A stretch of DNA of 64,000 bases from Escherichia coli. GTDB lineage: Bacteria; Pseudomonadota; Gammaproteobacteria; Enterobacterales; Enterobacteriaceae. Location: NCBI RefSeq assembly GCF_036507355.1, contig NZ_AP027877.1, one strand, 5' to 3'. The position numbers and the translations under genes are program-made. How positions within the stretch are numbered: position 1 is the stretch's first letter; the number at the start of each line of letters is the position of its first letter. Under the pieces are notes generated by a model that had not been told where the DNA came from, did not search any database, and saw only the letters and a program-made list of their open reading frames with translations. Of the stretch, positions 44,720-47,078 are shown in pieces.

Positions 44720-45178
44720 TTAGTACTGATGAGCGGTCGCGTTGTTACCAAAGCCAACCTGAGTTACGTTGACGGTGGAATTAGATGCAGTCTGGTCAAC
44801 CGCTGCACCGTTGCCGCCACCGAACTGTTTAACTGTCATATGAGAGTCTTTACCGTTCCACTGATCAAGAGTGGCGCTGTTACCAAAGCCACGTTGGGTC
44901 AGATCGATTGAGCTGTCATCTGAGCCCTGACCAACATCTGCACCGTTACCACCACCATGCTGGGTAATAGTAAGATCAGAGTTACGAGCATCAGCTTGCA
45001 GAGCAAGTGCAGAGTTACCACCACCGTACTGATAAATATTCAGCTCTGAATTCGGGCCGCTGTTATTACCGCCACCACCGTGGTTACCGCCACCGCCGCC
45101 GTACTGAGGAACAACACCTGCCAGAGCGCTACCGGAGAATACGATTGCTGCAATTGCTGCTACTTTTAAAAGTTTCAT
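44720..45178 (-). CDS. csgA: Major curlin subunit
   Basis: ORF track 152 aa; signal peptide, Gly-rich N22 segment, five imperfect repeats. Confidence 0.95.
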   Translation of the reverse strand: MKLLKVAAIAAIVFSGSALAGVVPQYGGGGGNHGGGGNNSGPNSELNIYQYGGGNSALALQADARNSDLTITQHGGGNGADVGQGSDDSSIDLTQRGFGNSATLDQWNGKDSHMTVKQFGGGNGAAVDQTASNSTVNVTQVGFGNNATAHQY

Positions 45179-45218: not shown

Positions 45219-45674
45219 TTAACGTTGTGTCACGCGAATAGCCATTTGCGACTGTCTCTGCACTACAATTGCCGTTTTTTGAGTACCATACTGTGTAATA
45301 TTTGCTTTATTACCAGAACCTTTCTGGATAATCATCGCTGTATTACCATAAGCACCTTGCGAAATACTGGCATCGTTGGCACTGCCCGCCTGATCAATAT
45401 ATGCAAGGTTATAATCTCCTGTCTGGTCAATCTTTGCCCGGTTGCTACTACCTTCTTGCGCAACAACCGCCAAAAGTTTTGAGCCTCCCTGCCGTAACTG
45501 AGCACTATTATTAGTCCCAGCTTGACCAATTATGGCTGCCTGATTAAATGAAGACTTACTCAATTCATTTACCGCGAAGTTATATTCTGAATTAGCTAAA
45601 TCATAACCTGCTGCGGCTGCAATCCCAGGCGCACCCAGTATTGTTAACATCATAAATAACAATTTGTTTTTCAT
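45219..45674 (-). CDS. csgB: Minor curlin / nucleator
   Basis: Internal start MKNKLLFMMLTILGAPGIAAA within ORF track 45219..45701; 151 aa. Confidence 0.94.
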   Translation of the reverse strand: MKNKLLFMMLTILGAPGIAAAAGYDLANSEYNFAVNELSKSSFNQAAIIGQAGTNNSAQLRQGGSKLLAVVAQEGSSNRAKIDQTGDYNLAYIDQAGSANDASISQGAYGNTAMIIQKGSGNKANITQYGTQKTAIVVQRQSQMAIRVTQR

Positions 45675-46427
45675 GTTGTCACCCTGGACCTGGTCGTACA
45701 TTTAAGAAATTAAATCATTTCAACTTGGTTGTTAACGCAACCTGTATTTTGTTAACGCTGCGTTACGATGGAAAGTATGTCTGCGGAAATATTTTTAATA
45801 ACTCACCCGCGCGTTGTATTTTTCTTTTTTTGTTCATACCAAAGTATTAAAACCCACGTAAATACGCTGTTATCTACGCAAAAAATATTTTGTTTTCTTT
45901 TAAATCTCCGTTTTCCGCTAGCAAAAAACACCAGACAGTCATTCTTCTTGCCCGTCGCTGATTGCTGCGATATGTCTTGCGCACAAGCCGTGACAAACCT
46001 CGTCTTTTTGCAGTAAAAAATTGTCCACGGTGGTGTGGAGAAAAAACAAGAACGTTTTACATGACGAAAGGACTACACCGAAATATTTTTTATATGCATT
46101 ATTAGTAAGTTAGCACCATTTGTATGATTTTTTAAAATTGTGCAATAAAAACCAAATGTACAACTTTTCTATCATTCCTAAACTTAATAAAACCTTAAAG
46201 TTAACATTTTAATATAATGAGTTACATTTAGTTACATGTTTAACACTTGATTTAAGATTTGTAATGGCTAGATTGAAATCAGATGTAATCCATTAGTTTT
46301 ATATTTTACCCATTTAGGGCTGATTTATTACTACACACAGCAGTGCAACATCTGTCAGTACTTCTGGTGCTTCTATTTTAGAGGCAGCTGTCAGGTGTGC
46401 GATCAATAAAAAAAGCGGGGTTTCATC
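45675..46427. promoter_or_regulatory. Divergent csgB / csgD intergenic control region
   Basis: 753-bp non-coding, strongly A+T-rich gap between divergent curli operons; individual binding sites not resolved. Confidence 0.8.

Positions 46428-47078
<651 letters not shown>

What the first reader, a model, noticed from the sequence alone, without database searches (positions are those of the whole stretch)
45675..46427. Very long A+T-rich csgB-csgD intergenic region
At 753 bp it is far longer than typical divergent promoter regions. It contains long A/T tracts (for example 46100..46330) typical of curved, nucleoid-protein-bound DNA. One 82-codon ORF (45768..46016) lies inside it but looks spurious.
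Basis: partly seen in the sequence, partly recalled or inferred. Interest (0 to 1): 0.35.

Follow-up and report, generated by a model that had tools for sequence, protein, structure and literature searches.

The report
Curli csgB–csgD control region
This is the well-studied 753-bp non-coding control region between the two divergent curli (biofilm fibre) operons of Escherichia coli; it is real and unusually long and A+T-rich, but already thoroughly described, and the ORF inside it is spurious.

Summary
Window 45675..46427 is the csgB(-)/csgD(+) intergenic region: 753 bp and 65.5% A+T, against 50.4% for the window. It differs from the 754-bp E. coli K-12 region by 8 substitutions and 1 indel, and at least 80% of it is present in 5329 of 5426 complete E. 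coli genomes.

Published work already calls it the 5th-longest divergent intergenic region in K-12. That work describes it as curved, H-NS/IHF-bound, and bound by at least 12 proteins and 5 sRNAs.

The published architecture is recoverable in the window:
- the csgD promoter and its 147-nt leader (Rfam ES056, 119.7 bits; stem-loop II with compensatory changes);
- the OmpR repeat and the MlrA palindrome;
- a degenerate IHF site;
- the CsgD box over the csgB -35, and an invariant csgB -10.

The 82-codon ORF is frame-shifted in K-12 and closed or start-less in most other species, so it is spurious.

One addition comes from 76 enterobacterial species. The region's length is conserved (IQR 754-765 bp) although its central ~260 bp is at random-level identity. 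A conserved distal island sits at a nearly fixed distance from the csgD-proximal sites. The strongest predicted bend in the 64 kb lies at ~46009, not in 46100..46330.

Verdict: already known; low interest.

The parts
45675..46427 (.). Complete csgB-csgD (csgBAC/csgDEFG) intergenic control region: 753 bp, 65.5% A+T.
   Evidence: It is 98.8% identical to K-12 NC_000913.3 1103197..1103950. At least 80% of it is present in 5329 of 5426 complete E. coli genomes.
45675..45767 (-). Inferred csgB 5' leader, about 93 nt. It has a conserved ribosome-binding block CCAGGTCCAGGGTGACAAC (45693..45675). It also carries two conserved GCGTTAAC repeats (45758..45751 and 45738..45731). The first repeat lies in GTAAC-N5-GTTAA, which resembles a CpxR box.
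   Evidence: Cross-species alignment. The start point is inferred from the position of the invariant -10 and was not verified in a paper. The CpxR-box resemblance rests on my own knowledge of the GTAAA-N5-GTAAA consensus. A CpxR site at the csgB promoter is mentioned in PMC13304067.
45774..45779 (-). Probable csgB promoter -10 hexamer, CATACT.
   Evidence: CATACT is present in all 33 representative species aligned, within a conserved GACATACT block. Its function as the -10 is inferred.
45799..45809 (-). CsgD box CGGGTGAGTTA, overlapping the weak -35 position (GTTATT, 45802..45797) of the csgB promoter.
   Evidence: The sequence was read directly and is nearly invariant across genera. CsgD directly activates csgBAC by binding a specific promoter motif (PMC13304067). 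The 11-bp consensus CGGGKGAGNKA is from my own knowledge.
45814..45848 (-). Two further conserved blocks upstream of the csgB promoter: AAAAATACAAC (45824..45814) and TAATACTTTGGTATGA (45848..45833). No factor is assigned.
45768..46016 (+).
   Evidence: In K-12 the A6/A7 indel shifts the frame, giving a 64-aa product with an unrelated C-terminal half. Only 44 of 76 sequences have ATG, GTG or TTG at the aligned start. The frame closes after 9 codons in E. albertii and most other genera. It is not annotated in K-12 or A30.
45851..46110 (.). Central segment: 61.5% A+T and poorly conserved in sequence (34% identity to other genera), but conserved in length (median 267 bp).
45986..46009 (.). Conserved distal island AAGCCGTGACAAACCTCGTCTTTTT, at about -295..-272 from the csgD start site. 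In other genera it reads CGTGACA or TGTCAC, then N9-10, then TTTTCTTAAG. No factor is assigned. The strongest predicted intrinsic bend of the 64-kb window lies at its 3' edge (46008-46010).
   Evidence: The distance to the MlrA right arm is 165-170 bp in 57 species by an alignment-free motif search.
46015..46039 (-). Weak terminator-like element on the - strand: stem TCCAC/GTGGA at 46039..46024, then a T6 run at 46020..46015. It overlaps AAAATTGTCCA (46017..46027), which repeats the MlrA left arm 117 bp away.
   Evidence: family D5. It is conserved only in Escherichia and Citrobacter. It is probably not a functional terminator.
46100..46112 (+). Upstream IHF-type site, at -181..-169. In the window it is the degenerate TATTAGTAAGTTA. 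In most other genera it is the consensus AATCAA-N4-TTA.
   Evidence: There is no exact WATCAANNNNTTR match inside the window's region. IHF binding upstream of the MlrA site is described in PMC3913822 and PMC4894380.
46134..46167 (.). MlrA palindrome AAAATTGTGCA-N12-TGTACAACTTT, at -147..-114.
   Evidence: The sequence was read directly, and the arms are highly conserved. A 33-bp palindromic MlrA site between the IHF and OmpR sites is described in PMC3913822.
46191..46202 (.). AACCTTAAAGTT, a variant of the K-12 MqsA palindrome AACCTTAAGGTT. The difference is G to A at 46199, position -82. It lies between the published CpxR boxes.
   Evidence: and PMC4894380. The exact 30-mer of the window allele occurs in 34 of 5426 genomes, against 2154 for the K-12 allele. 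The palindrome is not conserved outside E. coli.
46221..46240 (+). OmpR activating site, the tandem repeat GTTACATTTA GTTACATGTT, centred at -50.5.
   Evidence: The OmpR D1 site at -51 is described in PMC13304067. Its spacing to the -10 is 46 bp in nearly every one of the 76 species (range 46-47).
46247..46274 (+). csgD core promoter: -35 TTGATT (46247..46252), a 16-bp spacer, and -10 TAGATT (46269..46274).
   Evidence: The -10 and -35 blocks are highly conserved across genera. The assignment is by position relative to the mapped start site. The match to consensus is weak (8 of 12), so the consensus scan missed it. Conservation of the promoter and +1 is reported in PMC6061853.
46281..46427 (+). 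csgD 5' untranslated leader, 147 nt. It contains an A/U-rich Hfq and cleavage region (~46298..46308), stem-loop I (~46309..46320), stem-loop II (~46347..46397) and a Shine-Dalgarno GGGG (46417..46420). It is the target of the sRNAs OmrA/B, McaS, RprA, GcvB, RydC and RybB.
   Evidence: Rfam RF02752 ES056 matches 46281..46372 at 119.7 bits, E = 9.8e-23. The MFE z-score is -2.39. Eleven pairs show compensatory changes across 19 species. See also PMC6061853. The segment is identical to K-12.

Best explanation
This is the canonical curli control region of Escherichia coli: the non-coding DNA between the divergently transcribed csgBAC operon (fibre subunits) and csgDEFG operon (master regulator and secretion).

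Its length is accounted for by five parts:
1. A csgB leader of about 93 nt.
2. About 83 bp of csgB promoter. CsgD binds a box over the -35, next to a conserved -10.
3. About 260 bp of A+T-rich central DNA. Its sequence is free to vary, but its length is held. It contains one conserved island and a predicted bend.
4. About 170 bp of very A+T-rich DNA (76%) upstream of the csgD promoter, densely packed with sites for IHF, MlrA, CpxR, MqsA, OmpR, RcdA, RstA and BasR. H-NS coats this DNA, and the activators and IHF compete with it.
5. A 147-nt csgD leader. Hfq-dependent sRNAs pair with it to block translation or trigger RNase E cleavage.

The region therefore integrates many environmental signals into an on/off decision for biofilm matrix production.

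Shown here: the coordinates, composition, identity to K-12, phylogenetic footprints, leader structure and non-coding status. Taken from the literature: which proteins and sRNAs bind where. Inferred: the csgB start point, and the idea that the fixed spacing reflects IHF-mediated looping.
For: Flanking genes and synteny.

The region is 753 bp against 754 bp in K-12, with 8 substitutions and 1 indel. Positions 46219..46427 (core promoter, OmpR site and leader) are identical to K-12.

At least 80% of the region is present in 5329 of 5426 complete E. coli genomes at 95-99.9% identity.

Rfam ES056 matches the first 92 nt of the csgD leader. Leader stem-loop II has 11 covarying pairs.

Phylogenetic footprints across 76 species coincide with the published OmpR, MlrA, IHF, promoter and CsgD-box positions.

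The most A+T-rich 231 bp of the 64 kb (46071..46330) coincides with the published H-NS footprint, -201 to +28.

Literature: PMC5745457 (754 b, 65.5% AT, curved, at least 12 proteins and 5 sRNAs); PMC12713406; PMC13304067; PMC12388358; PMC4894380; PMC6061853; PMC3535384; PMC4769171.
Against: Nothing contradicts the identification. There are four caveats.

- The consensus promoter scan finds neither mapped promoter, because both are weak and activator-dependent.
- Mean predicted curvature of the region is not clearly above composition-matched shuffles: 33 of 200 shuffles reach it in the Bolshoy-Trifonov model and 5 of 200 in the AA-wedge model. The wedge parameters were recalled from memory.
- The upstream IHF site and the MqsA palindrome are degenerate in this strain.
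- No binding was measured here. A 2025 deletion study found that several reported binders (BasR, RcdA, RstA, BtsR, MqsR, CpxR) had no effect on csgBA expression in planktonic culture (PMC12713406).
Confidence: 0.96

Rival explanations
1. The 82-codon ORF at 45768..46016 (+) is a real small-protein gene embedded in the intergenic region.
For: The ORF has an ATG start and is open for 82 codons in this strain. It stays open for 87-122 codons in four other Escherichia lineages.
Against: K-12 has a 1-bp indel inside it, which gives a different 64-aa product. E. albertii and most Citrobacter, Enterobacter and other genera have a stop after 9 codons. Thirty-two of 76 sequences lack any start codon at the aligned position. 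Its conserved 5' third is the csgB promoter (CsgD box and -10) on the opposite strand, which explains that conservation. It is not annotated in K-12 or A30.
Confidence: 0.02
2. The long A+T-rich stretch is a remnant of horizontally acquired or mobile DNA rather than an ancestral regulatory region.
For: A+T-rich, H-NS-bound DNA is typical of acquired islands. In some strains IS elements do insert in or next to the region.
Against: The same region, with the same flanking genes and nearly the same length (IQR 754-765 bp), is present in 76 enterobacterial species of many genera. No IS-like or long repeats occur within it. It is present in 98% of complete E. coli genomes.
Confidence: 0.02
3. The Rfam ES056 match marks an independent small-RNA gene rather than simply the 5' part of the csgD mRNA leader.
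For: There is a full-length, high-scoring match to an Rfam family typed 'Gene; sRNA' at 46281..46372. sRNA-stimulated RNase E cleavage of the leader is documented, so stable 5' fragments may accumulate (PMC6061853).
Against: The match begins at the mapped csgD start site and lies wholly in the 147-nt leader. No terminator-like element follows 46372. The conserved structure (stem-loop II, 46347..46397) runs past the end of the match.
Confidence: 0.1
4. The central ~260 bp is functionless filler, and its conserved length is only a by-product of low indel rates rather than of a geometric (looping or phasing) requirement.
For: Identity to other genera is 34%, close to random. Two Kosakonia species make do with a 586-589-bp region. 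The predicted bend position is conserved only in Escherichia and some Citrobacter. Most mapped binding sites lie within 200 bp of the csgD start site (PMC5745457).
Against: The spacer between the distal island and the IHF/MlrA block is 100-103 bp in 74 of 76 species, and 101-102 bp in 69, although its sequence is essentially randomised. An alignment-free measure gives 165-170 bp in 57 species. Such small length variation is hard to reconcile with unconstrained drift at saturating divergence; this step is inference, as no neutral control region was available.
Confidence: 0.35

Closest known systems
E. coli K-12 MG1655 csgD-csgB intergenic region (NC_000913.3 1103197..1103950, 754 bp)
   Same: The flanking genes, orientation, length (753 against 754 bp) and A+T content (65.5%) match. 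Identity is 98.8%. The core csgD promoter, OmpR site, MlrA palindrome, the whole csgD leader, the CsgD box and the csgB -10 are all identical.
   Different: There are eight substitutions, at 45831, 45921, 45928, 46031, 46113, 46177, 46199 and 46218. There is one A-run indel (A6 against A7 at 45880..45885). The 46199 G-to-A change breaks the MqsA palindrome. The closest complete genome is strain A30, at 99.9%.
Salmonella enterica csgD-csgB (agfD-agfB) intergenic region (755 bp)
   Same: The architecture and length are the same: 760 bp in S. enterica subsp. diarizonae, locus L022. OmpR D1 lies at -51. There are IHF, MlrA and H-NS regions, and the DNA has intrinsic curvature.
   Different: The central segment and the first ~50 nt of the leader have diverged. 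H-NS and RcsB are reported to act with opposite sign. McaS is absent in Salmonella. SsrB anti-silencing is specific to Salmonella.
Rfam RF02752 (ES056 sRNA)
   Same: There is a full-length match (model positions 1-92 of 92) at 119.7 bits, against a gathering score of 43, at 46281..46372.
   Different: Here it is the 5' two-thirds of the csgD mRNA leader, not a free-standing gene.
Other long divergent H-NS/IHF-controlled regulatory regions of E. coli, for example nanC-fimB (1455 bp)
   Same: These are very long, A+T-rich divergent intergenic regions that integrate many regulators. They are listed together in Table S6 of PMC5745457.
   Different: They have different genes and regulators. According to PMC5745457, the csg region has the highest density of mapped sites within 200 bp of a start site. 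nanC-fimB was not examined here.

Membership tests
Curli csgDEFG/csgBAC intergenic control region (Enterobacteriaceae) | Lies between divergently oriented csgB and csgD start codons. | tested here: met
   The csgB ATG is at 45674..45672 (-) and the csgD ATG is at 46428 (+). CsgB is 100% and CsgD 99.1% identical to K-12.
Curli csgDEFG/csgBAC intergenic control region (Enterobacteriaceae) | Length of about 750-760 bp and about 65% A+T. | tested here: met
   It is 753 bp and 65.5% A+T. K-12 has 754 bp. The median over 78 sequences (76 species) is 760 bp and 65.2% A+T.
Curli csgDEFG/csgBAC intergenic control region (Enterobacteriaceae) | csgD promoter with a start site about 148 nt upstream of the ATG, and an OmpR site centred near -50. 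| tested here: met
   The sequence is identical to K-12 from 46219 to 46427. The Rfam leader match begins at 46281. The GTTACA tandem repeat is centred at 46230.5, which is -50.5.
Curli csgDEFG/csgBAC intergenic control region (Enterobacteriaceae) | MlrA palindrome between the IHF and OmpR sites. | tested here: met
   AAAATTGTGCA-N12-TGTACAACTTT lies at 46134..46167 and its arms are conserved across genera. It is described in PMC3913822.
Curli csgDEFG/csgBAC intergenic control region (Enterobacteriaceae) | CsgD-binding box at the csgB promoter. | tested here: met
   CGGGTGAGTTA lies at 45809..45799 (-) and is nearly invariant in 33 representatives.
Curli csgDEFG/csgBAC intergenic control region (Enterobacteriaceae) | Actual occupancy by H-NS, IHF, OmpR, MlrA, CpxR and others, and dependence on RpoS. 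| not testable with these tools
   This is known only from the literature on K-12 and Salmonella.
csgD mRNA 5' leader / Rfam RF02752 ES056 | Match to the covariance model above its gathering score. | tested here: met
   The match scores 119.7 bits against a gathering score of 43, and covers the full length of the model.
csgD mRNA 5' leader / Rfam RF02752 ES056 | Conserved stem-loop II supported by covariation. | tested here: met
   Of 22 predicted pairs, 11 have compensatory double changes in 19 species. The MFE is -40.1 kcal/mol with a z-score of -2.39.
Intrinsically curved (phased A-tract) DNA | Predicted curvature above that of composition-matched sequence. | tested here: inconclusive
   The single highest predicted bend of the 64 kb is at 46008-46010 in both wedge models. 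The region-wide mean exceeds all but 33 of 200 shuffles (Bolshoy-Trifonov) or 5 of 200 (AA-wedge). The peak position is conserved only in close relatives. The parameters were recalled from memory.
Protein-coding gene (ORF 45768..46016) | Start codon and reading frame conserved in relatives. | tested here: not met
   The frame is shifted in K-12. It stops after 9 codons in most species, and 32 of 76 sequences have no start codon.
Intrinsic terminator or hairpin at the central island (45986..46012, + strand) | Conserved stem supported by covariation, followed by a T-run. | tested here: inconclusive
   RNAalifold predicts no consensus pairs. A named 5-bp helix is paired in only 64% of cells, and 9-19 of 500 shuffles do as well. 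The single-sequence stems are weak, at -0.6 to -9.4 kcal/mol.

The most novel reading that the evidence does not exclude
The csg control region may be built to a fixed geometry, not merely long. A conserved but unassigned distal element lies at window 45986..46009 (K-12 1103615..1103638), about -295..-272 from the csgD start site. It carries the strongest predicted intrinsic bend in the 64 kb. In at least 57 enterobacterial species it is held 165-170 bp from the MlrA right arm. In 74 of 76 species it is held 100-103 bp from a conserved IHF site. The intervening DNA has drifted to random-level identity.

On this reading, an IHF-induced U-turn at about -175 would fold the distal element back onto the OmpR/-35 region of the csgD promoter. 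Helical phase and loop length, rather than sequence, would then be under selection. If so, the far-upstream half of the region has an architectural role and a binding factor that have not been defined.
Probability: 0.2. Interest if true: 0.45.

Novelty: already known. Interest (0 to 1): 0.15.

Why it matters
The region controls the switch to curli and biofilm production in E. coli and Salmonella. It is one of the most densely regulated promoter regions known, so correct annotation matters for interpreting strain differences in biofilm phenotype.

As a finding it adds nothing new. Its length, A+T content, curvature and binding-site map are published.

Two modest points of added value come from this work. 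First, the length and internal spacings of the region are conserved across many genera despite a randomised central sequence, which points to a testable architectural constraint. Second, this strain carries a minority allele (34 of 5426 genomes for the exact 30-mer) at -82 that breaks the K-12 MqsA palindrome.

Tried and rejected
1. The ORF as a gene: rejected.

2. A hairpin plus T-run (intrinsic terminator or unannotated sRNA 3' end) at the central island. RNAalifold finds no consensus structure. The named helix is only weakly supported. Single-sequence stems are weak and fall in different registers. I did not adopt this reading.

3. Two CTTAAG elements (at -80 and at the distal island) placed symmetrically about the IHF bend. 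This was dropped because the -80 CTTAAG/MqsA palindrome is specific to E. coli, while the distal CTTAAG is absent from Escherichia, Citrobacter and Salmonella.

4. Conservation of the position of the predicted bend across genera. It holds only for Escherichia and some Citrobacter.

5. A consensus sigma-70 scan. It does not detect the real promoters, and its count is not above shuffles: 3 found against 3.6 expected.

6. An exact IHF consensus search. There is no match inside the region in this strain.

7. Assigning the distal island to a factor. The resemblances to a CRP half-site and to an OmpR half-site are weak. The papers that would settle it were not held: Ogasawara 2010 and 2011, Hufnagel 2016, and Thomason 2015 for the csgB start site. 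One lookup retrieved an unrelated paper.

8. Repeat search: only short two-copy A/T-rich matches were found.

Full report
**Observation.** The window around the finding carries, on the minus strand, csgC, csgA and csgB, with the csgB start codon at 45674..45672. On the plus strand it carries csgD (ATG at 46428) followed by csgE, csgF and csgG. The gap 45675..46427 is therefore exactly 753 bp, as reported.

It is 65.5% A+T, against 50.4% for the 64-kb window, and only 1.7% of 753-bp windows are as A+T-rich. The stretch 46100..46330 is 76.2% A+T. All 231-bp windows of the window that are at least as A+T-rich (0.03% of them) fall within 46071..46330. Homopolymer runs are short: twelve runs of 5-7 bp.

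In 40.7 kb of the near-identical strain A30 this is the longest intergenic gap. The next longest are 612 and 526 bp, and the other divergent pairs are 224-393 bp apart. The 82-codon ORF at 45768..46016 exists.

**Identity.** The region matches complete E. coli genomes almost universally. 5371 of 5426 genomes have a hit, and 5329 cover at least 80% of it at 95-99.9% identity. The best hit is strain A30, at 99.9%.

The K-12 MG1655 counterpart is NC_000913.3 1103197..1103950. It is 754 bp, has nothing annotated inside it, and lies between csgD (b1040) and csgB (b1041). The alignment shows eight substitutions, at window 45831, 45921, 45928, 46031, 46113, 46177, 46199 and 46218. It also shows one A-run indel (A6 here, A7 in K-12, at 45880..45885). 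Everything from 46219 to 46427 is identical to K-12.

**What is already published.** Smith et al. [quoted passage not shown] They also report that 26 of 32 mapped sites lie within 200 bp of the csgD start site (PMC5745457). The same description recurs in PMC12713406 and PMC13304067.

Published positions relative to the csgD P1 start site are:
- H-NS, -201 to +28;
- CpxR, -68 to -80 and -90 to -102;
- IHF, -37 to -96, plus an upstream site;
- the MqsA palindrome near -78 (PMC4894380);
- RcsB, -31 to +54 (PMC12388358);
- RcdA, -192 to -20 (PMC3535384);
- OmpR D1 at -51;
- a 33-bp MlrA palindrome between the IHF and OmpR sites (PMC3913822).

H-NS filament formation on the 755-bp Salmonella region, and its relief by a DNA-bending protein, were shown by AFM (PMC4769171). 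The csgD leader is a hub for OmrA/B, McaS, RprA, GcvB, RydC and RybB. It has an A/U-rich Hfq and RNase E region and three stem-loops (PMC6061853).

**Mapping that architecture onto the window.** Rfam's ES056 model matches 46281..46372 full-length at 119.7 bits. That is the first 92 nt of the csgD leader, which places the start site at 46280/46281 and gives a 147-nt leader. With +1 at 46281:
- the -10 TAGATT is at 46269..46274;
- the -35 TTGATT is at 46247..46252, with a 16-bp spacer;
- the OmpR tandem GTTACA repeat is at 46221..46240, centred at -50.5;
- the MqsA-type palindrome is at 46191..46202;
- the MlrA palindrome AAAATTGTGCA-N12-TGTACAACTTT is at 46134..46167;

The generic promoter scan misses both real promoters because they match consensus poorly. 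That fits their dependence on activators.

The leader folds with a z-score of -2.39. In a 19-species alignment, stem-loop II has 11 pairs with compensatory changes.

**Cross-species evidence.** A scan of one genome per species with CsgD returned 80 loci. In 75 of them both csgB and csgD starts were found. With the window, K-12 and A30 this gives 78 sequences, with a median length of 760 bp (IQR 754-765, range 586-802) and a median A+T of 65.2%. Only two Kosakonia species (586-589 bp) and one Escherichia sp. (733 bp) depart from this length.

Excluding K-12 and A30, 76 sequences were aligned. The alignment gives a clear footprint:
- the csgB-proximal 176 bp are 68% identical to other genera;
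- the central 260 bp (45851..46110) are 34% identical, near random;
- the 170 bp upstream of the csgD start site are 72% identical and 76% A+T;
- the leader is 68% identical.

Individual blocks coincide with the published sites. Most genera also have a consensus IHF site (AATCAA-N4-TTA) at the position of window 46100..46112. There the E. coli sequence is degenerate (TATTAGTAAGTTA), and the region holds no exact consensus match.

On the csgB side, CATACT at 45779..45774 is present in all 33 representatives, which makes it the probable -10. The CsgD box CGGGTGAGTTA at 45809..45799 overlaps the -35 position. Two conserved GCGTTAAC repeats lie in the leader. The csgB start point near 45767 is my inference; I could not retrieve the primary mapping papers.

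**The ORF.** In K-12 the A-run indel shifts the frame, giving 64 residues with an unrelated C-terminal half. Across species, 32 of 76 sequences lack a start codon at the aligned position. Most others, including E. albertii, stop after nine codons. The conserved 5' part of the ORF is simply the csgB promoter on the other strand.

**Curvature.** I computed helix-axis paths with two wedge models, using parameters recalled from memory, so only relative values are meaningful. In both models the highest predicted bend of the whole 64 kb is at 46008-46010. There T5 (46005..46009) and A6 (46015..46020) are about one helical turn apart.

The mean over the region ranks in the top 2-4% of 753-bp windows. 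It exceeds composition-matched shuffles only modestly: 33 of 200 shuffles reach it in one model and 5 of 200 in the other. The bend position is conserved in Escherichia and some Citrobacter only. The 'curved' label is therefore reasonable, but the main predicted bend is not in 46100..46330.

**Something beyond the literature I could read.** Spacings are conserved far more tightly than sequence:
- OmpR site to -10: 46 bp (range 46-47);
- MlrA right arm to OmpR site: 65 bp (range 64-66);
- the T-run of a central conserved island (45986..46009; CGTGACA, then N9, then a T-run or TTTTCTTAAG) to the MlrA left block: 116-117 bp (IQR; sd 1.8).

The spacer 46012..46112 is 100-103 bp in 74 of 76 species. 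Its ungapped identity between genera is 0.38, against 0.30 for shuffles, and most of that excess comes from the IHF site at its 3' end. An alignment-free motif search gives 165-170 bp between the island and the MlrA right arm in 57 species.

I could not assign the island to a factor. A hairpin or terminator reading is not supported. An IHF-mediated loop with a fixed geometry is a plausible but untested explanation. Neutral filler with few indels remains a live alternative. It gains some support from the two Kosakonia species with a shorter region.

**Strain-specific details.** The G-to-A change at 46199 (-82) breaks the K-12 MqsA palindrome AACCTTAAGGTT. The exact 30-mer of this allele occurs in 34 complete genomes, against 2154 for the K-12 allele. 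The palindrome itself is not conserved outside E. coli, so the functional weight of the change is uncertain. Some strains have lost the region through IS activity.

**Verdict.** The finding is accurate, and its interpretation is supported, but it describes one of the best-known regulatory regions of E. coli. Novelty: already known. Interest is low. The only lead worth a follow-up is the rigid spacing around the unassigned distal island.

Noticed in passing
window 45986-46112: There is a conserved distal island (CGTGACA, N9, then a T-run or CTTAAG). It is kept 100-103 bp from a conserved IHF-type site in 74 of 76 species, although the intervening DNA is at random-level identity. The strongest predicted bend of the 64 kb lies at 46008-46010. 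No factor is assigned.
   Followed up: partly
window 46017-46027 and 46134-46144: AAAATTGTCCA repeats the MlrA left arm AAAATTGTGCA at a spacing of 117 bp, about 11 helical turns. It is conserved in Escherichia and Citrobacter only, and may be a chance match.
   Followed up: no
window 46199 (also 46177 and 46218): There are substitutions relative to K-12 in the csgD upstream region, at -82, -104 and -63. The -82 G-to-A change breaks the MqsA palindrome (also a BasR-like CTTAAGGTT). This exact 30-mer occurs in 34 of 5426 complete genomes, against 2154 for the K-12 allele.
   Followed up: partly
window 44720-45178 (-): csgA encodes 152 aa, against 151 aa in K-12. The differences are an extra Gly in the N-terminal glycine run and several substitutions. 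Strain A30 has the same csgA length (459 nt).
   Followed up: no
window ~62368-63120: This is the most A+T-rich 753-bp stretch of the window, at 67.6% A+T. It was not examined. In strain A30 a tRNA-Ser-associated island with CbtA/CbeA toxin-antitoxin genes lies downstream of ghrA.
   Followed up: no
L003 (E. coli S1-CAM-01-A, NZ_CP145714.1): The curli locus is disrupted by IS elements. ISKpn26 replaces most of the intergenic region, csgD and the 5' part of csgE. IS903B lies between csgA and csgC. In all, 55 of 5426 complete genomes have no match to the region.
   Followed up: partly
(E. coli genome search): Six matches to the intergenic region lie on records labelled as plasmids, and 17 records match at only 80-90% identity. 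These were not inspected.
   Followed up: no
L082, L083 (Kosakonia pseudosacchari and K. quasisacchari); L067 (Escherichia sp. MOD1-EC7003): These are exceptions to the conserved length, at 586-589 bp and 733 bp. The two Kosakonia sequences also lack the MlrA right-arm motif GTACAAC.
   Followed up: no
window 45731-45767 (-): The csgB leader carries two conserved GCGTTAAC repeats 20 bp apart. The first lies in GTAAC-N5-GTTAA, which resembles a CpxR box. A small palindrome, GGTTGCGTTAACAACC, was flagged as terminator-like on the + strand by the scan.
   Followed up: partly
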